From: a virus
Taxonomy: Duplodnaviria > Heunggongvirae > Uroviricota > Caudoviricetes
Strand: one strand, 5' to 3'
IMG/VR virus record: IMGVR_UViG_3300028327_000833
Location: 34,516-98,515 of that record
Length of the DNA: 64,000 nt
A model generated the notes under the pieces. That model did no database searches. It had not been told where the DNA came from and saw only the letters and a list, made by a program, of their open reading frames with translations. Made by a program: the position numbers and the translations under genes. Position 1 is the stretch's first letter; the number at the start of each line of letters is the position of its first letter. Of this stretch, positions 29,347 to 51,006 are shown piece by piece.

Positions 29347-29904
29347 ATGAAACTATCTAATTATGCTAAAAATCTCGGAATCTCTTATTTGACCGCGTAC
29401 AGGCACTACAAAGCAAATAAGATTAAAGGCGCTTATCAGCTAGAGTCTGGGACAGTAATTGTTCCAGACTTAAATTCCGTAAGTAAACCTGACTATACTG
29501 TTATTTACAGCAGAGTCAGTTCGTCTGAAAATAAAAGCAACCTGGAGAGCCAGGCAGAGAGGCTTATGCAATTCTGTAATGCAAAAGGGTGGGTTGTTAA
29601 AGAAGTTATAAAAGAATGCGCATCAAGGTTAAACGATAACCGCCCTAAATTATTGAAGTTATTTAAGGAGAGGCGGGCAACTAGACTCGTGGTGGAGCAT
29701 AAAGACCGCCTAACCAGGTTTGGATTTAATTACATAAAAGAACTTTATAACGAGTGTGAAATTGTAATTTTAAATGAAGCTGAAAATCGAAATGATTTAA
29801 TGCAAGACTTTGTTTCGTTAGTAACCTCTTTTTGCGCTATGTTATATGGACAACGAAGGACAAAACGACAGACAGAAAAGTTAATCAAGGAACTTGAAAA
29901 ATGA
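29347..29904 (+). CDS. tnpA: IS607-family TnpA, serine recombinase with N-terminal MerR-like HTH
   Basis: catalytic serine motif VIYSRVSSSENKSNLESQ; 185 aa. Confidence 0.8.
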   Translation: MKLSNYAKNLGISYLTAYRHYKANKIKGAYQLESGTVIVPDLNSVSKPDYTVIYSRVSSSENKSNLESQAERLMQFCNAKGWVVKEVIKECASRLNDNRPKLLKLFKERRATRLVVEHKDRLTRFGFNYIKELYNECEIVILNEAENRNDLMQDFVSLVTSFCAMLYGQRRTKRQTEKLIKELEK

Positions 29905-32475: not shown

Positions 32476-32640
32476 GTGATTGAAGAGCTGAGCAAAAGTT
32501 GTCCGAATCACGTGAAGAACGAAATTAACGCGACGTTTGCCAAGAACGTAGTGAATCCTGACTTTACGGATAACTGCAACAAGCTGGCGAAACAAGCGGC
32601 AGGCAGAGTCAAACAACCTAAAGGCGAAGGACGGCTATGA
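32476..32640 (+). CDS. small hypothetical protein (GTG start)
   Basis: GGGGGA RBS; overlaps pncB start by ATGA. Confidence 0.3.
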   Translation: MIEELSKSCPNHVKNEINATFAKNVVNPDFTDNCNKLAKQAAGRVKQPKGEGRL

Positions 32641-33845: not shown

Positions 33846-33947
33846 ACTTTTAACCTTCTAAGGAGGGCGTTATGAGTGAACATAAGAAGCCTGGCGAGGT
33901 TCTTACTGAAGCCGAGGCGGGTTTTATCAGCGCAACGGAGGGAAAAA

Positions 33948-34835
33948 ATGTATACTTACAAGTTTGATGTAGAGAAAGTGACGAAAGATTGCGTCGCGTG
34001 GATAAAAAGATGGTTTGCCGAGAATGGCGGCGAGAGACCTGCCGCGATTGTCGGCGTCAGTGGAGGCAAGGACAGCGCGGTCGTCGCGGCATTGTGCGCC
34101 GAAGCTCTCGGCAAGGACAACGTTATAGCGGTGCTGATGCCGAACGGCGAGCAAAAGGACATTGCGGATTCCTGGAAAATTATATATCACATAGGTTTGA
34201 AGAGAATTATCCTCTCTAACATCAGCGACACTGTCAATGGGCTATTCGCTAATTGCGGTGTTGTTGAAGATTGTGTTAAGTACAACCTAAACCAACGGTT
34301 TTGGTATCCAGAAACAGCAAGCATTGCTTGGAACAATCAAGCCGCGGTAAACGCACCTGCGCGGATTCGGATGGCTACGCTGTACGCGATGGCGGCTCAA
34401 TACGGCGGTCGGGTGGCGAACACCTGCAACCGCAGCGAGGATGTGTGCGGGTACGCGACCCTCTACGGCGATTCGGCTGGCGACTTCAGTCCGCTGTCCA
34501 AGCTAACTGTGACGGAAGTCATCGCAATCGGCGAATACTTGGGTTTGCCACAAGAGATTACTCGTAAGACTCCGAGCGACGGCCTGTGCGGGAAGTCGGA
34601 TGAGGAATCTTTGGGCATGAAGTACGCCGAACTCGATGAGTGGCTCCGCGAAAGTAAGCGCGAGAGTACTATCGGCATCAAAGTCTGGGATATGTGGATG
34701 AGCCGCGGAAGGTTCAAACTATCTCTGATAAATCTACCGTCTTTCGACCCCGACCTTTATGACAGGATAGAAGATGTGGATTATGAGCGCAATCAACCAA
34801 GAGGCGAAGTAAGACTCATAAAGAGTATGCCTTGA
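33948..34835 (+). CDS. nadE: NH3-dependent NAD+ synthetase (NadE)
   Basis: PP-loop VGVSGGKDSAV; RBS ACGGAGGG before ATG 33948. Confidence 0.85.
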   Translation: MYTYKFDVEKVTKDCVAWIKRWFAENGGERPAAIVGVSGGKDSAVVAALCAEALGKDNVIAVLMPNGEQKDIADSWKIIYHIGLKRIILSNISDTVNGLFANCGVVEDCVKYNLNQRFWYPETASIAWNNQAAVNAPARIRMATLYAMAAQYGGRVANTCNRSEDVCGYATLYGDSAGDFSPLSKLTVTEVIAIGEYLGLPQEITRKTPSDGLCGKSDEESLGMKYAELDEWLRESKRESTIGIKVWDMWMSRGRFKLSLINLPSFDPDLYDRIEDVDYERNQPRGEVRLIKSMP

Positions 34836-35388
34836 TATGCCTGAATACTATTGCAATAAGCTGGCGGAGCAGGCGGCGAGCAGGATTAAGCCGGAAAAGT
34901 CGACGGCGAGGAATTACCGTGCTCTTGCGTAGTTAAGGGGTACGATAACGCTATCATAATCAAGTGGTAATACCGGAGGTGTAGAATGGAATGGAACCTT
35001 ACGCTCGACGGCGGTCAGTTGAATTTCCTGCACGATCTTGTAGCGGAGTACATGAAACAAGCGGAAAAACCGTCTTTAGCGAGCGTCTACCCGACAGGCA
35101 TCGCGCTTGAAGTCTATGACGCATTACAGGGAGCGTTGCCTAAAGAAAGGACGGCATAATGTCGGAAGAGCGCACCGTCTATCGCTGTCTGCACGAAACG
35201 GCGGGTCAGAACCAATGCCCTACCCTCGGCATGGCTAAAAACGACATCTATTGCAGATACGCCTGTTACGTCTGCAAAGACGAAGTCGCCGTGGATAAAA
35301 AATTCAAATGTCCGTTGGAAGCTAAATGAGCTATACGCTACGTTGATACTGTTTATAAACGAAGCTTTATGCGACGAGGAGGATATAG

Positions 35389-36504
35389 ATGCTGAATAGA
35401 GACCTTTCAGTTGTCATAGGACGGTTTCAGCCGTTGACGTCTGGACACACTGCGCTTATCAACGAAGCCCTTGACAGCCACTCCGACCTGCTCGTGATAG
35501 TCGGCGGGGCGAATGTCAGCCGAAGCATCAAGAATCCGTTTACGGCGTCCGAGCGAGTCGATATGCTCCGCAACTACTTTCAAGGCGGCTATCTGTCCGA
35601 GCGGAAATATGCTAATCCGATTATGGTTACTATAGCCTGTGTCGACGACTCAGATTACGACTCCGAATGGTGGGAGATTGCCGTAAGGGAATGCGTGTCG
35701 AAAGTCGCAGACGGACGCCGCGTTACCCACTACGGGCACAAGCGGGACGCTTCCTCATATTACATGGGCGATGCGCTCGTAGGAATCGCTGAGTATAAAG
35801 AGATTGAAGCCCTCGCGAAGAACATCAGCGCGACGAAAGTACGCAAAGCGTTATTTGAATGCGATGACGGAACTGTGAAAATTTATACGCCTTCTTGCGT
35901 ATCCTCGTTTTTGCGCGAATTCGTGGAATCGCGAGAGTACACTCATTTGACTGCGCAATATACGCGGATTCAGGAATACAAGGAAAAATGGAAATCCGCG
36001 CCGTACCCTCCAACCTTCGTAACAGTGGACGCTACAGTGTTCTGGTGCAAGACACTCGGCGATCACGACGGATGCCAAACGGAGACTCGAGTCTTGCTGA
36101 TTAGGCGACGGGACAACGGCTTATGGGCTGTCCCCGGCGGCTTCCTTAACCCTGACGAGCCGCTTAATAAAGCTGTGTGCAGAGAGTTATTCGAAGAGAC
36201 TAGAATCGATCTTGACGCAAAAAACGCCAACGTGTGTAGCGTTTTCGACGATCCTGACAGGGACTTGCGCGGACGTATTATAACCTACAACTACGCGTGG
36301 GTTTTCAACGGTCGTTGGTTAGCGGATCCAATCGCCTCAGATGACGCAATACAAGCGAAGTGGGTTCCGCTGGAATGGGTACGTCAAAATCCGACGCAAT
36401 TTTACGCCGACCACTTTAAAATGCTGAACGTTATGGCGCAAAAAGCGGGGGTGCTGGAACCGAGAGTACCTTGCGTTCTGATGCAAGAAATTAATCTTAA
36501 CTGA
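35389..36504 (+). CDS. bifunctional NMN/NaMN adenylyltransferase (NadM-type) with C-terminal Nudix hydrolase domain
   Basis: VVIGRFQPLTSGH (HxGH-type); Nudix box GGFLNPDEPLNKAVCRELFEETRI. Confidence 0.8.
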   Translation: MLNRDLSVVIGRFQPLTSGHTALINEALDSHSDLLVIVGGANVSRSIKNPFTASERVDMLRNYFQGGYLSERKYANPIMVTIACVDDSDYDSEWWEIAVRECVSKVADGRRVTHYGHKRDASSYYMGDALVGIAEYKEIEALAKNISATKVRKALFECDDGTVKIYTPSCVSSFLREFVESREYTHLTAQYTRIQEYKEKWKSAPYPPTFVTVDATVFWCKTLGDHDGCQTETRVLLIRRRDNGLWAVPGGFLNPDEPLNKAVCRELFEETRIDLDAKNANVCSVFDDPDRDLRGRIITYNYAWVFNGRWLADPIASDDAIQAKWVPLEWVRQNPTQFYADHFKMLNVMAQKAGVLEPRVPCVLMQEINLN

Positions 36505-36509
36505 GCGTC

Positions 36510-36540
36510 TAATTTCGGGGTCAATTTAGCGTACTATTGC
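36510..36540 (+). promoter_or_regulatory. degenerate copy of conserved motif (AATTTCGGGGTCAATTTAGCGTACT|ATTGCC), truncated at the cassette junction
   Basis: 26/30 identical to 37262-37291 up to GCGTACT, then diverges. Confidence 0.5.
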
Positions 36541-36576
36541 CACTTGCGGTTTGGTGTTACATGAAGGGCTTTCTAT

Positions 36577-37233
36577 ATGAACGATCTAAAAATGATTTGG
36601 CAAATATCGTGGTGTAGAAAACTTATTTTAATACACCTATTATATGTTTTTAATTATTTTACAGCTAGTATATTTTTTCGTACATTGATAGGACAATTTC
36701 CAAATGAATCTGTAGCATTAGATAAAATTTTCGTGCCGTCAATAATGCTATTATGCACCATATTTTTATTGTCTAATTCATTTAAGGAAAAATTTGTACA
36801 GAAAGAATATTTATTCGGCATAGCATTAATATCAATAGGATCTATAGGAATTGTTGCCGACGTTATTATATTATGCGGATATATGACATGGCATCTATAT
36901 TTGCTGCAAACAATATCAGATATAATGGGAATGATTTTCGCTTATCCTGTTTTAGAATATTTTAAAAATACGCATTTGATAAATAAGATAGTTAAAGGTG
37001 AGACAATGACTGCTTTTAATCAAATTGATAATGTATTAGGTGGAACTGTTTTAGGAATACTCGGAGGAATCGTTGCTTTGTCAATTATGAACTCGATAAA
37101 AACACCCTTAAATTTATTAATGTTTACGGCTTGGTTTGATATATTCGCTAATATTCTATATCCGTTAGCATATTGGATAACTTATAAAACGTATAAAAAT
37201 TTGAATTGTTTGAACAAGATAATCACACAGTGA
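36577..37233 (+). CDS. multi-pass membrane protein in AT-rich cassette (218 aa)
   Basis: strongly AT-rich ORF, I/L/F/N/K-rich with about 5 TM helices, against a ~50% GC background. Confidence 0.5.
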   Translation: MNDLKMIWQISWCRKLILIHLLYVFNYFTASIFFRTLIGQFPNESVALDKIFVPSIMLLCTIFLLSNSFKEKFVQKEYLFGIALISIGSIGIVADVIILCGYMTWHLYLLQTISDIMGMIFAYPVLEYFKNTHLINKIVKGETMTAFNQIDNVLGGTVLGILGGIVALSIMNSIKTPLNLLMFTAWFDIFANILYPLAYWITYKTYKNLNCLNKIITQ

Positions 37234-37261
37234 TAGGGAGACGTAAGGCTGAGCGCATAAT

Positions 37262-37291
37262 TTCAAGGTCAATTTAACGTACTGTAGTAGG
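37262..37291 (+). promoter_or_regulatory. conserved intergenic motif copy 6 (core ACGTACTGTAGTAG)
   Basis: core at 37277-37290; GGAGG RBS follows. Confidence 0.5.
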
Positions 37292-37320
37292 AGGCTGTTA
37301 TATGAACGACGGAGGTTTAA

Positions 37321-37488
37321 ATGGCGATAACGGTTAAAATGGGCGGCCTCGACTTGGCGGACTATATGCCGGAAGTGGTGGCGGATTTGGAAGCTCGAAT
37401 GGCGCAAACGGATGCAGAGTATGAACGCTTGCGCGCGCAGGGATTAAGCGAAGAGGAAGCAATTAGAACGCTCAATGAGGAGGATTAG
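37321..37488 (+). CDS. small hypothetical protein (55 aa)
   Basis: ORF after motif and RBS. Confidence 0.3.
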   Translation: MAITVKMGGLDLADYMPEVVADLEARMAQTDAEYERLRAQGLSEEEAIRTLNEED

Positions 37489-38400
37489 GTGTTTCATAGG
37501 GAAGCAGTGCCCGAGTACGGAATCTTGCTGATAATTGACGTTCAAAACGATTTTTGCGAAGGCGGAAGCATCGCCCGCAAAGGCGGACGGAAGATAGTGC
37601 CTATAATAAACGACCTGATGAAGCAGGATCGGATCCATTTGGTTGTCGCGACGCAGGACTGGCATCCGAAGAATCACATATCGTTCGCGAGCAGCCACAT
37701 GGACGGCGAACGCGTAGGGACTGAACCCTTACAGGGCGAGATCGCGCCGTTCAAGAGGGCGCTGGTGAGAAGCCCGAATACTGTGAGTTACGCGCCTGGG
37801 ACGGGCAAAGTCGATAAAATGCTGTGGCCCGACCACTGCGTAGCCGGAAGCATCGGGTCAGGGTTTTACTATCAGCAGAGCGGCGACTTATGGCTTGACT
37901 ATAAAAATATCGACCTGATTTACCGTAAAGGGACGGATTCCGAGTTGGACGCTTATGACGTTCTGTGGGACGAAATAGGACGTCCCAGTGCGTTACACTT
38001 TTTATTCGAGTCCATGATACGAAATATGGACAACGATTTGGCGTTCTACATCGTTGGAATCGCCACCGACGGTTGCGTGGCGTACACTGCCGACAGGTTG
38101 GTTCAACTCATCAGCAGCGTAAAAGAGCAGCACGAACCCAAAGTCTGTATGGAGCGCGGCTGTTTCGGAGATCCGAAGGCGTCCTTAGATAAAAAGGTAA
38201 CGGTAAAAGTCGTCTCCAACGCTTGTGTCGGGACGTCTGAAGAAGAGCACCAAAATGCGCTTGAGCGCTTGAAAACCACATCGATTGAAGTCGTCGAGCA
38301 CATCATACCATTTCCGCATAATTGCGGCAGAGCGGCAGAATTACGTAAAGACGGGCTTACTGAGGCTGAAATCACATACATAATTGAGGAGGGTAAGTAA
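37489..38400 (+). CDS. pncA: nicotinamidase PncA (paralogue 2, with C-terminal extension)
   Basis: LLIIDVQNDFCEGGSIA, VATQDWHPKNHISFAS, LWPDHCV, IVGIATDGCV align block by block to E. coli PncA; GTG start. Confidence 0.85.
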   Translation: MFHREAVPEYGILLIIDVQNDFCEGGSIARKGGRKIVPIINDLMKQDRIHLVVATQDWHPKNHISFASSHMDGERVGTEPLQGEIAPFKRALVRSPNTVSYAPGTGKVDKMLWPDHCVAGSIGSGFYYQQSGDLWLDYKNIDLIYRKGTDSELDAYDVLWDEIGRPSALHFLFESMIRNMDNDLAFYIVGIATDGCVAYTADRLVQLISSVKEQHEPKVCMERGCFGDPKASLDKKVTVKVVSNACVGTSEEEHQNALERLKTTSIEVVEHIIPFPHNCGRAAELRKDGLTEAEITYIIEEGK

Positions 38401-42356: not shown

Positions 42357-42428
42357 CGCGGGGTACAGTAGGAGTTACTGACGAGGCCCATAACCTCGGA
42401 CACGCAGGTGCAAATCCTGCCCCCGCTA
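42357..42428 (+). tRNA. tRNA-Met/Ile2 (anticodon CAT); position 1-72 is a C-U mismatch
   Basis: hand-folded cloverleaf: D stem CAGT/ACTG, anticodon stem CGAGG/CCTCG, loop CCCATAA, T arm GCAGG-TGCAAAT-CCTGC, acceptor CGCGGGG/CCCCGCT. Confidence 0.55.
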
Positions 42429-42435
42429 ATTACAT

Positions 42436-42510
42436 ATCGGCGCGGCTCAATAGGTTTAGAGCGCTACCTTGCCGAGGTAGATGTTGCGGGTTCGAGACCC
42501 GCTATCGGTT
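42436..42510 (+). tRNA. tRNA-Gly(GCC)-like with weak acceptor stem (3 G-U pairs, 1 mismatch)
   Basis: D arm GCTC-AATAGGTTTA-GAGC, anticodon arm CTACC-TTGCCGA-GGTAG, T arm GCGGG-TTCGAGA-CCCGC. Confidence 0.4.
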
Positions 42511-42530
42511 CCGCGATAAAGGAGGACGCT

Positions 42531-44501: not shown

Positions 44502-45377
44502 TTGAGCAATGTACTGTCACAAGAGGAAGTAACCGCGCTGCTGAACGCTAAAGCCGACGGCAAACTCGCCGATTCTGCGGACAAGCCGAAGTACGACAGC
44601 AACGACAGCCCGATCGCGAGCTATATGACTTGCGGGCATATCGATAAGCTGTATGCGGAAGGAATCGCTGACGATAGGCGTTCCGAGCGCTATTCTAAAA
44701 AGCAGATAAGATTGTTTACAGAGTTGTTTGAAGACGTTGTCGAGAAGGTTTCAGGCGACTGTTCGGAGCACCTGAAAAAGAAATGCGAGCTGGAACTTGT
44801 ATCTGTAGACGAGCTTACGACAAGCGAGTATATCTGTTCAATGTCGAATCCGTGCTACGTGAAACTGTTCAAATTGCCGAAAGCCGCGGATCGCGGGATC
44901 TTTGAAATGTCGCCGCATTATTTAAAGATGTTCGGCGCTCCTGACGACGCGAAAGACATCGACTGGAAGCCGCAGCCTCCGACCGTAGAGGAAAAACGAA
45001 TCGGCGAATATTTCGGCAAATGTCTTTTTACGAGAATTGCCGAGGCGTTTAATACCGTGTCGAGAATAAAGTTCGAGTATGCCGACAAATACACCGTCAC
45101 ATCGCCGCTACGGATTGACGCCGAGTCAGTGACGCCTAACGTGTTATTAGTCTGCATAGAGGCGAGAATGTCTTACGGAAGCGGATTGGTGTCGCTCGCG
45201 TTTCCACAATCGTATGTGAATTTTTTACTGCTGACGCAGAATCTTAAAAAGACGTCGGACTGCGTTAGGGACAATTTCAACAAAAACTGCATGTGCTGTA
45301 AACTGTTGCAGGATTATCTGAGAAATAACTTCGAGGATTTAAGAAAGATAGAGAAGGAATATTACTACGAGTCATAG
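44502..45377 (+). CDS. hypothetical protein (291 aa), TTG start
   Basis: AGGAGG RBS before TTG. Confidence 0.4.
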   Translation: MSNVLSQEEVTALLNAKADGKLADSADKPKYDSNDSPIASYMTCGHIDKLYAEGIADDRRSERYSKKQIRLFTELFEDVVEKVSGDCSEHLKKKCELELVSVDELTTSEYICSMSNPCYVKLFKLPKAADRGIFEMSPHYLKMFGAPDDAKDIDWKPQPPTVEEKRIGEYFGKCLFTRIAEAFNTVSRIKFEYADKYTVTSPLRIDAESVTPNVLLVCIEARMSYGSGLVSLAFPQSYVNFLLLTQNLKKTSDCVRDNFNKNCMCCKLLQDYLRNNFEDLRKIEKEYYYES

Positions 45378-45447: not shown

Positions 45448-45867
45448 ATGACGGCTTATCAAAAAACATATTTTTGGCGGCATGACAATCCCGTGTGGAC
45501 AGAATGTTATGCTCACGGAGATATACCGACCACAGCCGAGATTTATAACTGGGAGCCGGTAGGGCCTAAAACCGTCGGTCTTAACGGAAAAGAATATTAC
45601 GTCGAAAGCAGTTTTCCGGGATATTTGTACTCTCCGCCGGTAAATTCGCTGGTAAATTTTTATTTTAATCCGTCAAATAGAACAATAGCTCTGAACTGGT
45701 CGTTTTCTTACGGCATCGTTCAGAAGTCTGTCGAATTCAAAGCCGTAGACAAAACGCGGCTTCCGTCGGGCTGTCCCGAATTCAGCGAGGACTCGCTGTA
45801 TTTTATAATCTCTGATAAAGGCGGTTTAAGCGTAATAGCGGTGCAACTCTGTTCGCCTGACGAGTAG
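45448..45867 (+). CDS. hypothetical protein (139 aa)
   Basis: ORF. Confidence 0.4.
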   Translation: MTAYQKTYFWRHDNPVWTECYAHGDIPTTAEIYNWEPVGPKTVGLNGKEYYVESSFPGYLYSPPVNSLVNFYFNPSNRTIALNWSFSYGIVQKSVEFKAVDKTRLPSGCPEFSEDSLYFIISDKGGLSVIAVQLCSPDE

Positions 45868-45946
45868 GCGCCGGACTACGGACGTGGTGATTAAGGGTTC
45901 GAGTCCTTTATGAAGTGTTTAAACTTAAACTTAAAGGAGGCGTAAC

Positions 45947-46189
45947 ATGTCGGATTATGTAGCGGTGCTTGCCATTGTTGTGGCGATAATCAGTCTCGTT
46001 CTCGCGATTTATGCCGATAAAAAGTCGAGGTCGGCTTTAGCGCACGTGATTTGGCTGTCGAAAGAATACGGCAAGCTGATTAAACTCGGAAAAGAAACCT
46101 TAGAGATTGTCGAATCCAAACCGGTTGTGACGTTGCATACGATTCACGAGGTTCCGGCTGAGAAGAAGGATGCGCTTGAAGCGGATTGA
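45947..46189 (+). CDS. small membrane protein (80 aa)
   Basis: N-terminal TM helix; AAGGAGG RBS. Confidence 0.4.
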   Translation: MSDYVAVLAIVVAIISLVLAIYADKKSRSALAHVIWLSKEYGKLIKLGKETLEIVESKPVVTLHTIHEVPAEKKDALEAD

Positions 46190-46217
46190 TACAGCGCCTC
46201 GTCAGTCTAATTGATTT

Positions 46218-46294
46218 AGGGCGGCCGCCTAACGGCTGTGGCGTCGGTCTCCAAAACCACTTTTCGCGGGTTCGACTCCTGCCCGCCCTGTTAA
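46218..46294 (+). ncRNA. tRNA-like RNA: acceptor AGGGCGG/CCGCCCT, D arm, T arm GCGGG-TTCGACT-CCTGC, but no foldable canonical anticodon arm
   Basis: all 5+7+5 anticodon-arm registers in the 46239-46265 segment fail. Confidence 0.35.
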
Positions 46295-46307
46295 AGAAAG
46301 GCGTAGC

Positions 46308-46604
46308 ATGGTACAGTTAAAACAAAATTTCGAGGCGTACCGTGCGCATATTACGGCGAGCGTCGCGCAAAACCGCGTCCATCCGAACGTGCCGTACGCT
46401 ACGTTCGAGTCTTGGATTACAAGCATTCTGACGAATGTCGGCGCGATGATTGACGCGGCATCCGCGCGGAATGCGCCGTCATACTCTGCGCCGCCGTCCG
46501 TGCCGCCGAAGCTGTACGAGACGATTTGCGACACGCCGCAGAACACGGCGATATTTGAGATGCAGTCTGCAACAGTGCTGCCTCAAACGAATATTTTCTA
46601 TTAA
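46308..46604 (+). CDS. hypothetical protein (98 aa)
   Basis: ORF. Confidence 0.35.
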   Translation: MVQLKQNFEAYRAHITASVAQNRVHPNVPYATFESWITSILTNVGAMIDAASARNAPSYSAPPSVPPKLYETICDTPQNTAIFEMQSATVLPQTNIFY

Positions 46605-46618
46605 AATAGGAGGCGTTA

Positions 46619-46950
46619 TGGACGAAATTAACGAGGTAAAATCCGGCCCGAACGACGCTCTCGGCTGCCGTTGCGCCAAGTGCAAATTCCGTGTCGCCGT
46701 TGACGGCGGCGGGTTGGAGTCGAACGACTACTGCTCGAACCCTGAAAACCAAAAAACAGGGCTCGGCGTGCTGACCACAGTTTGGCGGCAGACCAAGGAA
46801 TTGTACGAGCACAACATTCTGACGCATTCGGCGTCTAAGAGCATTGAAAACGCTATAAAAAGCGGTATAGACTATATTCAGGATTACGGCATTCCGCTGA
46901 ATACGCCTTACGGACAGCGGTGTTTCGTCGCGAAAGAGACGGTTGAATGA
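46619..46950 (+). CDS. hypothetical protein (110 aa)
   Basis: AGGAGG RBS before ATG 46619. Confidence 0.35.
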
Positions 46951-47219
46951 GCGATTACATAAAATTGGACGTCCGAATTAACGGGACATGCAAAGCCGCG
47001 ACGTCCGACGAGGTCGGGTCATGCGACGGTTTCCGCGAAGGCCGAAGCGACGGAGGCAAACGCAGGTGCGCACACCGTCGCAACAACGGCGTCTATTGGA
47101 CGTGCGACCGGTACGCGCCGCTGATAGATTCGGCGAAGGACTATCTTGAACGTCTTTTCAAGCAATATCCGCCGAATAAGGATGGAGCGTCGGATCGCGT
47201 CTTCGAAAACTATAAATAA
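46947..47219 (+). CDS. hypothetical protein (90 aa)
   Basis: ATGA overlap. Confidence 0.35.
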   Translation: MSDYIKLDVRINGTCKAATSDEVGSCDGFREGRSDGGKRRCAHRRNNGVYWTCDRYAPLIDSAKDYLERLFKQYPPNKDGASDRVFENYK

Positions 47220-47250
47220 ATTTTGACGGCGAAAGGCGTACTGTAGTAGG
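47214..47250 (+). promoter_or_regulatory. conserved intergenic motif copy 8
   Basis: core at 47236-47249. Confidence 0.55.
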
Positions 47251-47373
47251 GGGAGCCGTGCAGGACGGGCGAAGTCAGGAACGGAGCGGTCTTTGACAAT
47301 GCGGGGGTTCAGCAGCGCGCGGCGGATCCATGCTGTTCGGGGCCAGCTACCCTACCCCCGCAGGTTTTTTTTT
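47250..47373 (+). ncRNA. candidate ~120-nt small RNA: promoter motif upstream, closing stem GCGGGGG(47301-07)/CCCCCGC(47355-61), then T9 (47365-47373)
   Basis: no coding ORF in the segment; long-range stem plus U tract typical of an sRNA 3' end. Confidence 0.35.
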
Positions 47374-47592
47374 GCAGATGTTTAATGCGTTGAAATATGC
47401 CCTGATGCGCAGTCGAGGAGTTCCTCCTGATAAGAGCGAGGCAGCGGGTTCGACTCCCGCCGTCCAACGGCGAAAGCCTGCGGTTAGTAGCTCAACGGCA
47501 GAGCGCGATACTCTTTGACGCATTTCTCAGGGCTACTTTATTTTTGAGACATTAAGGCTGCGATGTGAGTTATTGGTTACTTCTATTCGATT

Positions 47593-47662
47593 GCGGATAT
47601 AGCTTAACGGTAAAGCGCCCGATTTATAGTCGGGAGATGAGGGTTCAAATCCCTATAGCCTA
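47593..47662 (+). tRNA. tRNA-Ile(TAT)-like: clean D arm, anticodon arm CCCGA-TTTATAG-TCGGG and T arm, but acceptor ends do not pair
   Basis: partial cloverleaf. Confidence 0.35.
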
Positions 47663-47979
47663 TAACGCTTTTCACGCAGCCTTATCTCTCTTAGGGAGGC
47701 GCGGCGATGTGGTCTAAAATATTTTCCGTGCTTTCGGTTACAACTTGCGTTTGTTTTATGTTCGCCATTAAATACCATGCGGCTAACGCCGTTTGCGTCG
47801 GCTTAAGCATAGTAAGCACGGTCAGCAGTGCCTTGAGCCTATTATTATTATTAGGCGCGGAATGCCTCTCTAGCGATATTGACGGTGCGCCTGAACCTAA
47901 ACGCGCAAAGAGCCTGAAAAATTGCCGGATTTGTGCGCCTATACTGAAATGCTGTCGTAGCGTAACAAGGAGCCTCAAA

Positions 47980-49560
47980 ATGGCTAAGTTCAACAAATTG
48001 ACGGAGCCGCCGGTTAAAACCGCCAACCTGCAGGGATTCCCGGCCTACAAGCTGAACGACGAAGCGACCCTGACGTCCCAGGCGTTTACCACTTTCTTCG
48101 GCGAGCCTAAGTTCTACAAATCAGGCGGCGATGCGGACGGCCTCGTCAAGCTCGCCGCGGCCGTCGCGCAAAAGGATCCTGAATATGTCGCGAATCTCGC
48201 GGTATATGCGCGAACCGTCTTCAATATGCGTTCGGTTTCGCATGCCCTTACCGCGATTCTCGCGAAACTATATCGACTTAAGGCTCTCGACAGAGATTAC
48301 GGCAATCAGCGGGGACTTGTCCGCCGCCTCGTGAATAATGTCGTAATCCGGCCCGACGACATGACCGAAATTATAGCGTGTTATATCGGGATGTTCGGGA
48401 AACCGTTGCCTCAGAGCTTGAAGCGCGGCGTAGCCGACTGTTTAAATCGAACCGATTCCTACGGTATGGCCAAATATAAGGGGAACGGTCACGAGGTCAA
48501 GATGAAAGACCTAATCAACCTCTGCCACCCCAAACCTAAAGACAGGGAGCAGGAAGCCTTGTTCAAGCGTTGCCTTGAGGACAAGCTGGAGACCCCCGTG
48601 ACTTGGGAGACCGAGCTTTCGGCGAAGGGGAACAAGAAGGAAGTTTGGGAAAACCTAATCGAGGGTAAGCACCTTGGCGGGATGGCCTGTCTGAGGAATC
48701 TGCGCAATATTCTACAGGCCGGGGTTTCCGAAGCTCACCTTAACGAAGTTATATACAAAATATCGAATAAAGCGGATGTCTTGAAGAGCCGTCAGCTTCC
48801 GTTCCGCTACTTGTCGGCATACAAGGAACTGCAGGACGTCCCGGAAGCCGGCTCCAAGGTTTTCGACGCACTTGAAACCGCGCTGGAGCACAGCGTCGAT
48901 AATCTGCCTAAGTTCGACGGGCGGACGGCCGTGATCGCGGATGTGTCAGGTTCGATGGACGCGCCCGTCAGCAAAAAAAGCAAAATGACTTGCTCGGAAA
49001 TCGGTTTGCTGTTAGGAAGCATAGCCGCCAAGTTATCGCCCGACACCGTATTCTTGACTTTCGATTCTGAAGTTTACCCGCAATCGGTGTCCGCCAAGGG
49101 CAGGATTCTGAGCCAGGTCAAGAGTATTCAGGGACTGTTCGGCGGCGGCACGGCTGTCTACAAACCTATGGAATACCTTTTAACTAAAAAGATAAAGGTT
49201 GACAGAATTATTTTGCTGTCAGACAATGAGGCGAACGTGTTCAGCGCCGAATACTATTACAACAAGTTGCCGTTCGAGACGTTCTGTGACAGAGCGCCGA
49301 AAGGCGCTGCCGCGCAAGCGGTCGTGAACTCGTACCGCAAGAATGTGAACCCCGACGTTTGGGTGCACGCCGTCGATTTGCAGGGGTACGGAACCGTGCA
49401 GTTCAATCCGCACGACAATCGCGTGAACTATATTGCCGGTTGGTCGGAGAAACTGTTGCAGTTTATACAATACGCGGAAGCCGGAGTCACGACGCTCGTA
49501 AAGACCGTGCGCGATTTCAAAATCGACCGGGCCGGGCGCGAGGAAGCGGAAGCGGCGTAA
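47980..49560 (+). CDS. rsr: Ro60/Rsr orthologue (TROVE domain + C-terminal vWA)
   Basis: N-terminal FTTFFGEPKFYKSGGD resembles the Ro60 FLCFGSEGGTYY block; C-terminal MIDAS DVSGSMD; 526 aa from ATG 47980 (RBS AAGGAG). Confidence 0.7.
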   Translation: MAKFNKLTEPPVKTANLQGFPAYKLNDEATLTSQAFTTFFGEPKFYKSGGDADGLVKLAAAVAQKDPEYVANLAVYARTVFNMRSVSHALTAILAKLYRLKALDRDYGNQRGLVRRLVNNVVIRPDDMTEIIACYIGMFGKPLPQSLKRGVADCLNRTDSYGMAKYKGNGHEVKMKDLINLCHPKPKDREQEALFKRCLEDKLETPVTWETELSAKGNKKEVWENLIEGKHLGGMACLRNLRNILQAGVSEAHLNEVIYKISNKADVLKSRQLPFRYLSAYKELQDVPEAGSKVFDALETALEHSVDNLPKFDGRTAVIADVSGSMDAPVSKKSKMTCSEIGLLLGSIAAKLSPDTVFLTFDSEVYPQSVSAKGRILSQVKSIQGLFGGGTAVYKPMEYLLTKKIKVDRIILLSDNEANVFSAEYYYNKLPFETFCDRAPKGAAAQAVVNSYRKNVNPDVWVHAVDLQGYGTVQFNPHDNRVNYIAGWSEKLLQFIQYAEAGVTTLVKTVRDFKIDRAGREEAEAA

Positions 49561-49868
49561 TTTTTAACACGACCGAGTAAGACTCTGCGGCTATCCAAAA
49601 TTATTCGAAAGAAGGTACTTATGGTGTGGCTGATATGTTTTTTACTGATGATGGTCTTAGTGGTTGCAATTTCTCGCATGTGAAGAATCGCAGGGCCGAT
49701 CGTTTAAGGCCGGCCGTAACAAGCCGTCTGAAGACGGCCGCTCCCCTGCCTCATTATAGACGGAGTCAAAGGTCGCGGTTAAATAACCCGTTTCGACAGC
49801 GGCGGGGGATTCGCGAGGGCCTGACATGCGCCTTTTCAGCCGAGTAAGCTCCGTCTTTTTTTTTACGC
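49561..49868 (+). ncRNA. candidate structured ncRNA (possible Y-RNA-like partner of Rsr) ending in U9
   Basis: nested complementarity: GCCGTC-TGAA-GACGGC; CCCCTGCC(49743-50)/GGCGGGGG(49801-08); GACGGAG(49760-66)/CTCCGTC(49848-54) followed by T9; the only ORF is a 73-aa low-complexity basic one. Confidence 0.3.
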
Positions 49869-49878
49869 CGACTGCAAC

Positions 49879-49951
49879 GCCTCGTTAGCCTAGCGGATCA
49901 GGCGGTAGCCTTCTAAGCTACATGAGAATGGTTCAACTCCATTACGGGGTG
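49879..49951 (+). tRNA. tRNA-Arg (anticodon TCT)
   Basis: acceptor GCCTCGT/ACGGGGT, D arm GCCT-AGCGGATC-AGGC, anticodon arm GTAGC-CTTCTAA-GCTAC, T arm AATGG-TTCAACT-CCATT. Confidence 0.65.
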
Positions 49952-49957
49952 TTTTCT

Positions 49958-50257
49958 ATGACTGTCGTATACGCGTTCCGTTATCTATGGGGCTTGCCGA
50001 TTATCGCCCCTTGCAAACATTGCAGGGTCTCCGTCAAAGTCTTCCGCAACGCGCGCAACCGCCCGTTCGACGCGTTCTATCTCTGCAACGCCGGCAACGA
50101 TAAGACGCAATGCAACGGAAACACGGGAGCGTCGCCCGAAGCGGCGGCGCCGTTCGCCGAACCCGAGCGTCCCGAAGACATGATCGCGAAACGCGGCGAC
50201 GCCAATCTCAACCAGGACGAAATCAGCGCCCTCTTCGCGAAGGCTAGTAAAACATGA
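49958..50257 (+). CDS. hypothetical Cys-containing protein (99 aa)
   Basis: ATG after tRNA; ATGA overlap with next gene. Confidence 0.35.
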   Translation: MTVVYAFRYLWGLPIIAPCKHCRVSVKVFRNARNRPFDAFYLCNAGNDKTQCNGNTGASPEAAAPFAEPERPEDMIAKRGDANLNQDEISALFAKASKT

Positions 50258-51006
50258 CCTGCCGAATCAAAAATATCGACGCTGTCGAAGGCATGTCGGA
50301 ACTCGCCGGCAAAAGCGTCGACATGATTTTCGTCGATCCTCCCTACGGCAAAACCGCCCTGAAATGGGACAATGTAATTCCGTTCGACCGTTTGTGGCCG
50401 CAATTCAACCGCATAATCAAGGACAACGGCGCAATCGCGATAACCTGCCGCCAGCCGTTCACATCCGCGTTAATTATGAGCAATCTGAAGATGTTCCGTC
50501 AGACTTGGGTCTGGGACAAGGTCATTGCTACGAATTTTATGAACGCCCGTAAAATGCACACGCAGGGATTCGAGGACGTCGCCGTCTTCTACAAGGAGCC
50601 GCCGACCTACAACCCGCAGATGGAACCGGGCGAGCCGTACAAAGACGGCAGATCGACTTCGCACAGGACTTCCACGGAAGCTCTATGCAGCCGGGCGAAG
50701 TACGTCGCGCAAGACAACAAGGGCGAGCGGTTTCCGCGAGGAATCGTACGAATATCCGCGCGAAACAATTCGCCCGTTCACCCGACGCAGAAACCCGTGG
50801 AATTGTGCGAATACTTCATCAGGACGTACACGAACGTAGGCGATACGGTGTTAGACTGCTGTATGGGCAGCGGAAGCATAGGCGTCGCCGCCTTGAATCT
50901 GGGCAGAAGTTTCATCGGCTTCGAGATCGACGAAGGCTACTTCAAAACCGCCGAAGGGCGGCTGAAGGCGGCGGGCGCGGAAACCGAGACCGCGCCTGTT
51001 ACGTAA
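50254..51006 (+). CDS. DNA N6-adenine/N4-cytosine methyltransferase (beta class, DPPY)
   Basis: motif IV IFVDPPYG precedes motif I LDCCMGSGSIGVAA. Confidence 0.75.
   Translation: MTCRIKNIDAVEGMSELAGKSVDMIFVDPPYGKTALKWDNVIPFDRLWPQFNRIIKDNGAIAITCRQPFTSALIMSNLKMFRQTWVWDKVIATNFMNARKMHTQGFEDVAVFYKEPPTYNPQMEPGEPYKDGRSTSHRTSTEALCSRAKYVAQDNKGERFPRGIVRISARNNSPVHPTQKPVELCEYFIRTYTNVGDTVLDCCMGSGSIGVAALNLGRSFIGFEIDEGYFKTAEGRLKAAGAETETAPVT

What the first reader, a model, noticed from the sequence alone, without database searches (positions are those of the whole stretch)
47980..49560. Ro60/Rsr orthologue embedded in a tRNA and tRNA-like cluster
The 526-aa protein has a TROVE-like N-terminus (FTTFFGEPKFYKSGGD) and a C-terminal vWA MIDAS (DVSGSMD), the Ro60 architecture. 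Bacterial and phage Rsr genes are typically adjacent to Y RNAs, which contain a tRNA-like module. Around this gene are canonical tRNAs (Met/Ile2-CAT, Ser-CGA, Arg-TCT). There are also several tRNA-like elements that fold D and T arms (GGTTCGA-type) but lack a canonical anticodon arm or acceptor pairing, at 46218-46294, 47425-47470 and 47593-47662. Two non-coding structured segments, 47250-47373 and 49561-49868, end in U tracts. These are candidates for Y-RNA/YrlA-like RNAs that tether Rsr to exoribonucleases.
Basis: partly seen in the sequence, partly recalled or inferred. Interest (0 to 1): 0.65.

Follow-up and report, generated by a model that had tools for sequence, protein, structure and literature searches.

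The report
Phage Ro60 gene with two Y RNAs
A probable large phage carries a Ro60/Rsr RNA-binding protein gene preceded by two small tRNA-mimicking Y RNA genes, a known kind of RNA-handling module; one of the two RNAs had been read as an ordinary isoleucine tRNA.

Summary
The protein call is right. Window 47980-49560 (+) encodes a 526-aa TROVE + Ro60-type vWA protein with an intact MIDAS motif. It is full-length similar to the solved Thermus phage phiLo Ro60.

The Y RNA idea is also right, but at other coordinates. I built a covariance model from 56 rsr-adjacent RNAs of Clostridia and relatives, with the window excluded. It finds two tandem same-strand RNAs just upstream of rsr.
- **Y1 (47397-47536):** 58 bits, E=1e-14. 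It has the YrlA architecture: closing stem, internal loop, inner stem, V hairpin, T arm, hairpin, D arm, then a U tract.
- **Y2 (47555-47683):** 22 bits, E about 3e-4. It has the same stem/loop module and an exact GGUUACUUC. Its interior is the element ARAGORN calls tRNA-Ile(TAT), in normal D-anticodon-T order with a defective acceptor stem.

46218-46290 scores as a weak tRNA.

Phage Ro60 with upstream Y RNAs is already described, so this is a new member of a known kind. The normal-order tRNA-like Y2 is an uncommon variant. Expression and Rsr binding are inferred, not shown.

The parts
47980..49560 (+). rsr: 526-aa Ro60/Rsr-family protein (TROVE HEAT-repeat ring plus Ro60-type vWA domain)
   Evidence: Pfam TROVE 1.5e-36 and vWA_Ro60 2.5e-12. 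PHROG 850 7.5e-51. PDB phiLo Ro60 9kop/9l5y E=3e-39 over residues 14-501. 2912 homologues found, all listed ones carrying TROVE+vWA_Ro60.
47967..47972 (+). Ribosome-binding site AAGGAG, 7 nt before ATG 47980
   Evidence: Read from the sequence. The RBS and start are conserved in L005, while the upstream sequence is not.
48940..48954 (+). MIDAS motif D-V-S-G-S (D321, S323, S325) of the vWA domain
   Evidence: Invariant columns D321 S323 G324 S325, plus T391 and D415, in a 28-sequence alignment.
47397..47536 (+). Y1: YrlA-class Y RNA (whole gene)
   Evidence: Model R1 was built without the window. Hit of 58.2 bits, E=1e-14, full length 1-138, with no non-canonical pair. Rfam YrlA partial hit of 20.3 bits at 47437-47507. 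MFE -57.1 kcal/mol, z=-2.0.
47399..47405 (+). Y1 outer (closing) stem, 5' strand GCCCUGA. It pairs with UCAGGGC at 47527-47533.
   Evidence: The homologous stem covaries in the family (columns 3-8/160-165).
47406..47411 (+). Y1 5' internal-loop motif UGCGCA(G). The family consensus is CAGUGCAG; L006 has UGCGCAG.
47412..47421 (+). Y1 inner stem, 5' strand GUCGAGGAGU. It pairs with 47510-47519. It contains GUCGAGG, a 6/7 match to the GNCGAAN0-1G motif of YrlA.
   Evidence: The family inner stem shows compensatory changes (columns 17-25/144-151). The motif is defined in PMC4201824. The Rfam consensus places GGCGAAUG in this stem.
47423..47441 (+). Y1 V hairpin (CCUCCU-GAUAAG-AGcGAGG)
   Evidence: MFE fold. 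It sits where the family V hairpin sits. This feature is inferred.
47444..47460 (+). Y1 T arm GCGGG-UUCGACU-CCCGC
47461..47487 (+). Y1 acceptor-stem-equivalent (AS) hairpin region. It is irregular, with a GGC-GAAA-GCC tip, and is longer than in most relatives.
   Evidence: The model treats it as a 25-nt local insert. The pairing was read by hand from the sequence and is inferred.
47488..47504 (+). Y1 U8-A9 equivalents plus D arm (UA GCUC-AACGGCA-GAGC)
47520..47526 (+). Y1 3' internal-loop motif (C)GCAUUUC. The family has CGnUUUUnUC; L006 has CGCUUUUC.
47537..47545 (+). U-rich tract UUUAUUUUU after the Y1 closing stem. Possible terminator or 3' end.
   Evidence: Sequence. Inferred.
47555..47683 (+). 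Y2: second Y-like RNA, with a normal-order tRNA-like interior
   Evidence: R1 hit of 22.4 bits, E=2.7e-4 (1.4e-5 on the 4.6-kb region), full length. MFE equals centroid at -46.1 kcal/mol, z=-4.16, 0 of 200 shuffles fold as well.
47554..47562 (+). Y2 outer stem, 5' strand AAGGCUGCG. It pairs perfectly (9 bp) with CGCAGCCUU at 47675-47683.
47569..47576 (+). Y2 inner stem, 5' strand GUUAUUGG. It pairs 7/8 with CCUAUAAC at 47659-47666.
47575..47583 (+). Y2 GGUUACUUC, an exact match to the most conserved motif of the family
   Evidence: Invariant columns T25 C27 T28 T29 C30 of A2. Exact match at 47575.
47594..47662 (+). Y2 tRNA-like core: D arm 47602-47616, anticodon arm 47618-47634 (loop UUUAUAG), T arm 47640-47654. 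ARAGORN calls it tRNA-Ile(TAT).
   Evidence: The acceptor stem pairs at only 4/7 positions in the standard register and 5/7 in ARAGORN's register, read from the sequence.
47667..47674 (+). Y2 3' internal-loop motif GCUUUUCA. AACGCUUUUC is identical to L006 Yb.

Best explanation
The locus is a Ro60-Y RNA ribonucleoprotein module carried by what is most likely a large phage.

Components:
- rsr (47980-49560) encodes a ring-shaped TROVE/vWA RNA-binding protein.
- Two small non-coding RNAs are encoded in tandem, 444 and 297 nt upstream on the same strand.
- Each RNA pairs its 5' and 3' ends into a two-part stem interrupted by a conserved internal loop: 5' UG(C/U)G(C)AG and 3' CGC(A/U)UUUC.
- In Y RNAs the 5'/3' stem region carries the Ro60/Rsr-binding site, so this module is inferred to be where Rsr binds.
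- The distal part of each RNA mimics tRNA. Y1 has the circularly permuted YrlA layout (V hairpin, T arm, closed 'acceptor' hairpin, D arm). Y2 has a D arm, a complete anticodon arm and a T arm in natural order, but no usable acceptor stem.

Inferred mechanism, by analogy with D. radiodurans Rsr/Yrn1/PNPase and phage phiLo Ro60/Yrl/PNPase:
- The RNAs dock on Rsr through the stem module.
- They use the tRNA-like module to recruit or compete for host tRNA-binding or RNA-decay proteins.
- This retargets structured-RNA decay or quality control during infection.

Shown here by computation only: protein family membership, RNA family membership, family-wide covariation of the stems, and synteny. Inferred: transcription, processing, Rsr binding, the partner protein and the biological role.
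For: Protein:
- TROVE and vWA_Ro60 are above the Pfam cut-offs.
- MIDAS residues are invariant.
- Full-length match to the solved phiLo Ro60 at 3e-39, and to D. radiodurans Rsr and Xenopus Ro60.

RNA family:
- In the 80 genome loci fetched through Rsr relatives, a T arm followed by a D arm about 35-45 nt later was found by regex upstream of rsr at 72 sites, the window's included.
- In a 56-sequence MAFFT alignment without the window, RNAalifold predicts 29 pairs, 24 of them with compensatory changes.
- The tRNA Levitt 15:48 position covaries: G:C 33, A:U 21, other 2.

The window's RNAs:
- Model R1 from that alignment hits Y1 at 58.2 bits, E=1e-14, full length, all pairs canonical. It hits Y2 at 22.4 bits, E=2.7e-4.
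- With filters off over 4.6 kb, nothing else is significant.
- The closest relative with an upstream flank (L006, Rsr 61% identical) has two tandem small RNAs with the same loop sequences, GA|UGCG(C/U)AG and AACGCUUUUCUC.
- The Y2 fold has z=-4.16.
- No gene is called in 47220-47706 on the identical public contig.

Literature:
- YrlA RNAs lie within 4 kb of rsr on the same strand in 254 bacteria and 22 phages (PMC4201824).
- phiLo has two Yrl RNAs upstream of its Ro60 that bind it and PNPase (PMC12135203).
Against: - There is no expression or binding data for this sequence.
- Rfam YrlA scores Y1 at only 20.3 bits (gathering score 69, E=0.86) and does not hit Y2.
- Y1 lacks the Levitt pair (A15/A48). 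It has an irregular, over-long acceptor-equivalent hairpin, and its junction reads GUUCCUCC instead of GGUUACUUCG.
- The Y1 fold is only modestly better than shuffles (z=-2.0, 7 of 200).
- The Y2 score is modest. Its interior does not fit the family T-AS-D layout, and ungapped motif scans rank its 5' and 3' motifs only 64th and 187th of 128,000 positions.
- The protein is far below the NCBIfam Rsr equivalog cut-off (45.7 versus 900).
- Phage origin of the window is inferred from gene content. No structural gene was recognised.
Confidence: 0.8

Rival explanations
1. Y2 is not a Y RNA. It is a genuine phage tRNA-Ile(UAU) gene that decodes AUA, and the complementary flanks are only a pre-tRNA leader and trailer removed by RNase P and RNase Z.
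For: - ARAGORN calls tRNA-Ile(TAT), and Rfam tRNA gives 47.6 bits, above the gathering score of 29.
- The anticodon arm is perfect, with U33 and A37. D and T loops carry G18, G19 and UUCAAAU.
- ATA is 32% of Ile codons in 30 ORFs of the window, so an AUA decoder would be useful.
- Other tRNAs are encoded nearby.
Against: - The acceptor stem has 3 mismatches of 7, including positions 1-72 and 2-71, in the standard register. ARAGORN's register gives 5/7 but leaves a single nucleotide between the acceptor and D stems.
- The first T-stem pair is G.A, and no CCA is encoded.
- The flanks carry the family's specific motifs (exact GGUUACUUC, AUGUGAG, AACGCUUUUC), a 9-bp outer stem and a 7/8 inner stem in the right order.
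- The inner stem uses the would-be 3' acceptor strand.
- In the MFE, which equals the centroid, the 5' acceptor strand is sequestered in a 6-bp hairpin.
- An independent locus (L028 1963-2103) shows the same design.
Confidence: 0.2
2. Y1 and Y2 are decaying tRNA relics (pseudo-tRNAs or dimeric tRNA remnants) in a phage tRNA cluster. They have no function, and their resemblance to Y RNAs is incidental.
For: - Chen et al. warn that the T arm of one tRNA plus the D arm of the next can mimic YrlA. That false positive does occur in this window at 42404-42466, from the Met and Gly tRNAs (19.8 bits).
- Degenerate tRNA-like elements exist nearby: 46218-46290 and 45846-45917.
Against: - Y1 has no anticodon arm or acceptor strands around its T and D arms.
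- Y1 matches the model over its full length, including the non-tRNA stem/loop module (58 bits).
- The module sequences are shared with relatives whose Y RNAs have no tRNA-like part at all (L006).
- Position and strand relative to rsr are those of the family.
Confidence: 0.05
3. The Y RNAs are, the U-tract-terminated segments 47250-47373 and/or 49561-49868.
For: - Both are non-coding and end in U9 tracts.
- Bacterial Rsr loci can hold Y RNAs that escaped bioinformatic detection (PMC4201824).
- 49561-49868 is framed by an exact 9-mer, CCGAGTAAG, that also precedes a U9 tract downstream of rsr in L005.
Against: - R1 with filters off gives 3.6 bits (E=4) for 47283-47379 and nothing on the + strand in 49561-49868.
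- No Rfam hit at E<=10.
- Folds are not better than shuffles, z=+0.88 and +0.24.
- They have no T or D arm and no family loop motifs.
- Alignment of 49540-49960 with L005 1621-2000 shows little similarity between the rsr stop and the downstream tRNA.
Confidence: 0.05

Closest known systems
YrlA Y RNAs with Rsr (S. Typhimurium, M. smegmatis, mycobacteriophages; Rfam RF02553; Chen et al. 2014, PMC4201824)
   Same: - Y1 lies upstream of rsr on the same strand and within 4 kb.
- Its 5' and 3' ends pair.
- It has the permuted tRNA-like domain: V hairpin, T arm, closed acceptor-like hairpin, D arm, with U8, A14, G18, G19 and UUCGA equivalents.
- More than one Y RNA per locus.
   Different: - Y1 scores only 20 bits with Rfam YrlA. 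Its Clostridial relatives score 32-46 bits, all below the gathering score of 69.
- The family has an additional outer stem and a conserved internal loop (CAGUGCAG / UCGnUUUUnUC) outside the Rfam model.
- The GNCGAAN0-1G motif is not conserved. Y1 has GUCGAGG and Y2 has none.
- Y1 lacks the 15:48 Levitt pair.
Thermus phage phiLo Ro60 with Yrl1 and Yrl2 (PMC12135203; PDB 9KOP, 9L5Y)
   Same: - A phage-encoded Ro60 with two Y RNA-like genes directly upstream.
- It is the closest solved structure to the window's protein (E=3e-39 over the full length).
- The RNAs have a stem-bulge-stem layout.
   Different: - About 29% protein identity.
- The phiLo Yrls were defined by a CGAA-containing bulge. The passages read describe a stem-bulge-stem layout and no tRNA-like domain.
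- The host lineage differs (Thermus versus probably Clostridia).
D. radiodurans Yrn1 with Rsr and PNPase
   Same: As described by Chen et al., Yrn1 differs from YrlA in the order of its tRNA-like elements relative to the 5' end. The stem-loop between them occupies the anticodon-arm position rather than the acceptor position. That is the topology of Y2.
   Different: - Yrn1 has no full D arm, and its 'anticodon loop' has 6 nt.
- Y2 has a full D arm, a 5-bp anticodon stem and a 7-nt loop.
- There is no detectable sequence relationship apart from the T loop.
Rsr-adjacent Y RNA arrays of Clostridia and relatives (assembled here from public genomes; not, as far as I could check, a named family)
   Same: - Y1 and Y2 match a covariance model built from these RNAs.
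- Same position and strand relative to rsr.
- Tandem copies are the rule: up to six hits upstream of one rsr (L012, L001), often interleaved with real tRNAs.
   Different: - The window's RNAs are divergent members: 58 and 22 bits, against 90-130 bits for typical members.
- About 300 nt separate Y2 from rsr, against 30-100 nt in most loci.
- A normal-order tRNA-like interior was found in only 4 of 243 regex-defined module candidates, and only the window's Y2 and L028 carry a D arm, anticodon arm and T arm together.

Membership tests
Ro60/Rsr (TROVE + vWA) proteins | TROVE (HEAT-repeat ring) domain above the curated cut-off | tested here: met
   PF05731, 127 bits versus cut-off 23.
Ro60/Rsr (TROVE + vWA) proteins | C-terminal Ro60-type vWA domain with MIDAS (DxSxS...T...D) | tested here: met
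   PF25045, 47.5 bits versus 27.7. D321, S323, S325, T391 and D415 are invariant in 28 sequences.
Ro60/Rsr (TROVE + vWA) proteins | Full-length sequence similarity to Ro60 proteins of solved structure | tested here: met
   phiLo Ro60 at 3e-39 over residues 14-501. D. radiodurans Rsr at 7.8e-8 and Xenopus/human Ro60 at 4e-6 and 1e-5 over the residue 218-421 region only.
Ro60/Rsr (TROVE + vWA) proteins | NCBIfam 'RNA-binding protein Rsr' equivalog score | tested here: not met
   NF041674, 45.7 bits versus cut-off 900. The protein is a divergent family member, not an equivalog of the curated Rsr set.
Ro60/Rsr (TROVE + vWA) proteins | Ring-shaped fold; binds Y RNA on the outer surface and RNA 3' ends in the cavity | not tested
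   No structure prediction was run, and binding cannot be tested with these tools.
YrlA-class Y RNA | Rfam RF02553 gathering score | tested here: not met
   Y1 scores 20.3 bits versus 69 (E=0.86); Y2 has no hit. The eight relatives' loci tested also fall short, at 32-46 bits.
YrlA-class Y RNA | Encoded within about 4 kb of rsr on the same strand | tested here: met
   Y1 ends 444 nt and Y2 297 nt upstream of ATG 47980, both on the + strand.
YrlA-class Y RNA | tRNA-like domain in the order T arm, closed acceptor-like hairpin, D arm | tested here: met
   Y1: T arm 47444-47460, hairpin region 47461-47487, D arm 47490-47504. Y2 does not meet this; its order is D arm, anticodon arm, T arm.
YrlA-class Y RNA | 5' and 3' ends pair into a stem interrupted by a loop or bulge (Ro-binding module) | tested here: met
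   Y1 has 7-bp and 8-10-bp stems. Y2 has a 9-bp stem and a 7/8 stem. The homologous stems covary in the family.
YrlA-class Y RNA | GNCGAAN0-1G motif near the 5' end | tested here: inconclusive
   Y1 has GUCGAGG (6/7) at 47412-47418, in the stem that aligns with the motif-bearing stem of the Rfam consensus. Y2 and the Clostridial consensus lack it.
YrlA-class Y RNA | Levitt-type 15:48 pair (G:C or A:U) | tested here: not met
   Y1 has A15 (47495) and A48 (47443). In the family the pair is G:C or A:U in 54 of 56 sequences.
YrlA-class Y RNA | Significant match to a covariance model of rsr-adjacent RNAs built without the query | tested here: met
   Y1 58.2 bits, E=1e-14; Y2 22.4 bits, E=2.7e-4. 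E-values are rough because calibration was shortened.
YrlA-class Y RNA | Stable transcript bound by Rsr; tRNA-type modifications (pseudouridine 55, dihydrouridine) | not testable with these tools
   Requires RNA-seq or Northern blots, immunoprecipitation and modification mapping.
Canonical elongator tRNA (for 47594-47662) | Detected by tRNA finders | tested here: met
   ARAGORN calls Ile(TAT). Rfam tRNA gives 47.6 bits, local match to positions 3-68.
Canonical elongator tRNA (for 47594-47662) | 7-bp acceptor stem with paired 1-72 and 2-71, and a two-nucleotide 8-9 linker | tested here: not met
   Standard register: 4/7 pairs, with 1-72 G.A and 2-71 C.U. ARAGORN's register: 5/7 pairs with a one-nucleotide linker. 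The 3' strand is shared with the Y2 inner stem.

The most novel reading that the evidence does not exclude
Y2 is a true hybrid: a nearly complete, natural-order tRNA-Ile(UAU)-like cloverleaf whose leader and trailer have become the Rsr-binding module.

Two readings follow.
- It presents an intact anticodon arm on an Rsr scaffold. There it could act as a decoy or sensor for host anticodon nucleases or other tRNA-targeting defences. A competitive-inhibitor role for the YrlA tRNA-like domain was floated in PMC7790460.
- Alternatively, it is an Rsr-chaperoned precursor from which an AUA-decoding tRNA is released.

The same design in L028, a full cloverleaf 'tRNA-Pro(UGG)' inside a Y module, would make this a recurrent and so far undescribed class of Y RNA.
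Probability: 0.15. Interest if true: 0.7.

Novelty: new member of a known kind. Interest (0 to 1): 0.35.

Why it matters
- It adds a divergent, probably Clostridia-infecting phage to the list of viruses that carry their own Ro60-Y RNA module.
- Standard annotation misreads such loci. Rfam's YrlA model misses both RNAs, and tRNA finders call one of them tRNA-Ile.
- The comparison set assembled here shows that Clostridial rsr genes are usually preceded by arrays of Y RNAs with a conserved stem/loop module that lies outside the Rfam model.
- A rare subclass carries a natural-order tRNA mimic.
- That gives concrete RNAs and loop and stem positions to mutate when asking what phage Ro60 does during infection.

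Tried and rejected
- **Rfam at gathering thresholds on the whole window:** only tRNAs were found, no YrlA.
- **blastn of 46000-50300 against 50,697 phage records:** no match.
- **Folding of 47225-47375 and 49561-49872:** not better than shuffles. The covariance model with filters off finds nothing there. Both were rejected as Y RNAs.
- **Metagenome and IMG/VR scans with the protein:** no relative closer than 50% identity. Y1 and Y2 therefore could not be tested for compensatory changes among close orthologues. The only close relatives are L005 (74%, just 60 nt of upstream flank) and L006 (61%).
- **Dimeric-tRNA artefact for Y1:** considered and rejected. No acceptor or anticodon parts flank its T and D arms, and the model match is full length.
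- **The 617-aa reading of rsr from ATG 47707:** rejected. Homologues start at MAKFN, and L005 is dissimilar upstream of the RBS.
- **Ungapped PSSM scan for the loop motifs:** too weak to be decisive, with ranks 64 and 187 of 128,000.
- **First two regex attempts to delimit the RNAs:** too strict or badly anchored. They were replaced by a fixed-window MAFFT alignment.
- **Literature not available:** the supplementary tables of Chen et al. 2014 and the two Wolin-lab reviews are not held. I could not check whether Clostridial YrlAs, or normal-order variants, were already listed.
- **Structure prediction:** not run, because sequence matches to solved Ro60 structures were sufficient.
Full report
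**The protein**

The mechanical ORF runs 47707-49560 (617 aa). The real start is ATG 47980, giving 526 aa.
- An AAGGAG lies 7 nt upstream of it.
- The 27 homologues aligned with it start at the nearly invariant M-x-K-F-N.
- In the closest relative (L005, 74% identical) similarity begins at the ribosome-binding site and not before.

Family evidence:
- Pfam gives TROVE at 127 bits and Ro60-type vWA at 47.5 bits, both above the curated cut-offs.
- PHROG 850 'RNA-binding protein' covers residues 5-502.
- The MIDAS residues are invariant in the family alignment.
- The best solved relative is the Ro60 of Thermus phage phiLo (E=3e-39, residues 14-501). D. radiodurans Rsr and Xenopus/human Ro60 match over the residue 218-421 region.
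- The protein is far below NCBI's Rsr equivalog cut-off, so it is a divergent family member.
- Its nearest relatives are TROVE proteins of Oscillospiraceae, Ruminococcaceae and other Clostridia at 45-50% identity.
- TROVE homologues occur in 441 phage records, none above 33% identity.

**Finding the RNAs**

ARAGORN and Rfam at curated thresholds see only tRNAs. With a permissive threshold, Rfam YrlA gives a weak partial hit of 20.3 bits (E=0.86) at 47437-47507. A T arm is followed by a hairpin and then a D arm. That is the circularly permuted order that defines YrlA (Chen et al. 2014).

By eye, GCCCUGA (47399-47405) pairs with UCAGGGC (47527-47533) around this core, and a U-rich tract follows.

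To test this properly I fetched 80 genome loci through Rsr relatives. A T arm followed about 35-45 nt later by a D arm was found at 72 sites (the window's included), nearly all upstream of rsr on the same strand.

A MAFFT alignment of 56 such RNAs, with the window excluded, shows a common architecture:
- an outer stem;
- a conserved 5' loop, CAGUG-YAG;
- an inner stem;
- an almost invariant GGUUACUUCG;
- a V hairpin;
- a T arm;
- an acceptor-like hairpin;
- GU plus a D arm;
- a spacer;
- the inner-stem return strand;
- a conserved 3' loop, UCGnUUUUnUC;
- the outer-stem return strand.

RNAalifold predicts 29 pairs, 24 of them with compensatory double changes. The tRNA 15:48 Levitt position covaries almost perfectly: G:C 33, A:U 21, other 2. 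So this is a real, structured, tRNA-mimicking RNA family. Rfam YrlA scores its members at 32-46 bits, which is significant but below the gathering score of 69. The Rfam model covers only the inner stem and the tRNA-like part.

**The test on the window**

A covariance model (R1) built from that alignment hits the window twice.

*Y1, 47397-47536:* 58.2 bits, E=1e-14, full length, with every modelled pair canonical.

*Y2, 47555-47683:* 22.4 bits, E=2.7e-4, or 1.4e-5 when only 4.6 kb is searched with filters off. Its features are:
- a perfect 9-bp outer stem, AAGGCUGCG/CGCAGCCUU;
- a 5' loop, AUGUGAG;
- a 7/8 inner stem;
- an exact GGUUACUUC;
- a 3' loop, GCUUUUCA.

The interior of Y2 is the element ARAGORN calls tRNA-Ile(TAT). 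It has a D arm, a perfect anticodon arm and a T arm in natural order. The whole 135-nt RNA folds to a single dominant structure at -46.1 kcal/mol, with z=-4.16 and none of 200 shuffles folding as well.

Evidence against a working tRNA:
- The 'tRNA' has a bad acceptor stem. In the standard register 4 of 7 positions pair, and both terminal pairs are mismatched. ARAGORN's register gives 5 of 7 but leaves a one-nucleotide 8-9 linker.
- Its first T-stem pair is G.A.
- No CCA is encoded.
- Its 3' acceptor strand is used by the Y2 inner stem.
- Its 5' acceptor strand is sequestered in a 6-bp hairpin in the predicted fold.

Independent support:
- L006, the closest relative with upstream sequence (Rsr 61% identical), has two tandem small RNAs just before rsr. 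Their loops are nearly identical to the window's: GA|UGCGCAG, GA|UGCGUAG and AACGCUUUUCUC. They have no tRNA-like interior.
- L028, a Bacilli MAG, has a Y module enclosing a complete natural-order cloverleaf that ARAGORN calls tRNA-Pro(tgg).

A rough regex census found natural-order interiors in 4 of 243 module candidates, against 77 clear T-then-D cases. Most 'T only' cases were also T-then-D with variant D arms. On inspection, only the window's Y2 and L028 among those four have a D arm, anticodon arm and T arm together. L001 has an anticodon-like arm plus a T arm, and L064 was not resolved.

**What is not a Y RNA**
47283-47379 scores 3.6 bits, and nothing on the + strand scores in 49561-49868.
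- They have no Rfam hit and fold no better than shuffles.
- 46218-46290 passes Rfam's tRNA threshold at 35.3 bits. Its anticodon stem is weak (3 bp; loop CUCCAAA) and ARAGORN does not call it. It has no Y module.
- The Met and Gly tRNAs at 42357-42512 produce the dimeric-tRNA false positive that Chen et al. warned about (19.8 bits, partial). This shows what an artefact looks like next to Y1.

**Deviations of the window's RNAs from their family**
- Y1 reads GUUCCUCC where the family has GGUUACUUCG.
- Y1 has A15/A48 instead of a Levitt pair.
- Y1 has a longer, irregular acceptor-like hairpin with a GAAA-capped tip.
- Y1 carries GUCGAGG, a 6/7 match to the GNCGAAN0-1G motif of proteobacterial and actinobacterial YrlA. 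It lies in the stem that aligns with the motif-bearing stem of the Rfam consensus.
- Y2 lies about 300 nt from rsr, rather than the usual 30-100 nt.
- A sigma-70-like match inside the 3' part of Y1 (TTGACG, 18 nt, TATTTT; 47515-47544) would start transcription at about the 5' end of Y2. This is a consensus match only.

**Context**

The window looks like part of a large phage.
- Genes are mostly co-oriented and many have no known family.
- It encodes a helicase and an NAD-dependent ligase-like protein.
- It carries a four-gene NAD+ salvage set, plus ThyX and radical SAM proteins.
- It also has three paralogous TnpB-like genes, DNA methyltransferases and five or six tRNAs.
- No structural gene was recognised, so phage origin is likely but not shown.
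- An identical Rsr protein sits on a 30.8-kb public Logan contig from SRR5247074, on which no gene is called between 47219 and 47707 in window coordinates.

**Mechanism**

Shown by computation:
- a Ro60-family protein;
- two upstream same-strand RNAs belonging to a covarying, tRNA-mimicking family that is syntenic with rsr.

Inferred from D. radiodurans (Rsr-Yrn1-PNPase), Salmonella and M. smegmatis (YrlA), and phage phiLo (Ro60-Yrl-PNPase):
- the stem/loop module binds Rsr;
- the tRNA-like module engages a second protein, such as an exoribonuclease or a tRNA-recognising enzyme;
- this redirects RNA decay or quality control in the infected cell.

For Y2, whose anticodon arm is intact, a decoy role against tRNA-targeting nucleases is conceivable. 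The idea was floated for YrlA in PMC7790460. ATA is 32% of Ile codons in the window's genes, so a decoding role cannot be excluded either. I put that rival at about 0.2.

**Novelty and verdict**

Phage-encoded Ro60 with upstream Y RNAs is established:
- 22 phages in Chen et al. 2014;
- jumbo phages;
- phiLo in 2025;
- a Listeria phage candidate.

This is therefore a new, divergent member of a known kind, and current RNA annotation misses it.

Three observations go modestly beyond the literature I could read:
- the natural-order tRNA-like Y2;
- the outer-stem/loop module of the family;
- the long Y RNA arrays in Clostridial loci.

I could not check these against the 2014 supplementary tables or the reviews.

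Confidence:

| Claim | Confidence |
|---|---|
| Rsr plus Y1 is a Ro60-Y RNA module | about 0.85-0.9 |
| Y2 is a Y RNA | about 0.65-0.7 |
| The stated explanation overall | 0.8 |

Noticed in passing
window 49561-49868: A 300-nt non-coding stretch lies between the rsr stop and tRNA-Arg(TCT). It is framed by the only two exact copies of CCGAGTAAG in the window (49573, 49840). It has a U6 tract near 49637-49642 and a U9 tract at 49857-49865. The relative L005 has GCCGAGTAAGCCTGATCTTTTTTTTT about 100 nt after its rsr stop. It is not a Y RNA by model R1, has no Rfam hit, and folds no better than shuffles. It may hold the rsr terminator plus an unrelated small transcript. Unexplained.
   Followed up: partly
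window 47707-47979: 91 in-frame codons lie upstream of the rsr start, with their own GGGAGG RBS and two hydrophobic segments. Gene callers fuse them to rsr (617 aa). The stretch is not conserved in L005, so it is probably a 5' leader. A membrane-anchored long isoform is not excluded.
   Followed up: partly
window 44502-45377 (+): A 291-aa protein matches Pfam FliM, the flagellar motor switch protein (47.9 bits, cut-off 27; N-terminus MSNVLSQEEVTALLNA). This is an odd gene for a phage-like genome.
   Followed up: no
window 32637-38400 (+): A contiguous NAD+ salvage set: NAPRTase (32637-33845), NAD synthase (33876-34835), NMNAT/Nudix-type cytidylyltransferase (35389-36504) and an isochorismatase/nicotinamidase-like protein (37489-38400). 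It resembles phage NAD+-reconstitution counter-defence gene sets.
   Followed up: no
window 4667-5806, 8025-9164, 29901-31040 (+): Three 379-aa ORFs. The first has a Cas12f1-like TNB domain. The other two hit the same PHROG transposase families. They are possibly three copies of an IS200/IS605-type element within 64 kb.
   Followed up: no
window 46218-46290 and 45846-45917 (+): Two degenerate tRNA-like elements in intergenic gaps. The first passes Rfam tRNA (35.3 bits), has a perfect 7-bp acceptor stem but only a 3-bp anticodon stem (loop CUCCAAA, CCA = Trp), and ARAGORN does not call it. The second scores 19.3 bits, below threshold. Neither has a Y RNA module.
   Followed up: partly
L012 1578-2458; L001 3115-3956; L055, L046, L060 upstream of rsr: Clostridial and viral rsr loci carry arrays of up to six tandem Y-like RNAs. 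Some are full YrlA-type and some are about 75-nt module-only RNAs. In several genomes (L016, L064, L032, L051) they are interleaved with bona fide tRNA genes.
   Followed up: partly
L028 1963-2103: A Y RNA module (CUAUUAGG / UAGUGAUAG / AAUACAG / UUACUUCG ... CUGUAUU / CACCCCCUUUCUC / CCUAAUAG) encloses a complete natural-order cloverleaf. ARAGORN calls it tRNA-Pro(tgg) and Rfam tRNA scores it at 54.8 bits. This is the same design as the window's Y2.
   Followed up: partly
L060 929-999, L060 1313-1383 and L022 2235-2308: ARAGORN calls 'tRNA-Cys', 'tRNA-Asp' and 'tRNA-Asn(att)' inside YrlA-type RNAs. Y RNAs of this family can be mis-annotated as tRNAs in public genomes.
   Followed up: no
L004 3454-3542 and 3756-3901: Rfam tRNA hits with 22-nt and roughly 75-nt insertions lie next to two Y-like RNAs on a 65-kb viral contig from a gut metagenome. 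The second hit joins a D arm after one Y RNA to the T arm of the next and is probably an artefact. The first may be an intron-containing or otherwise unusual tRNA.
   Followed up: no
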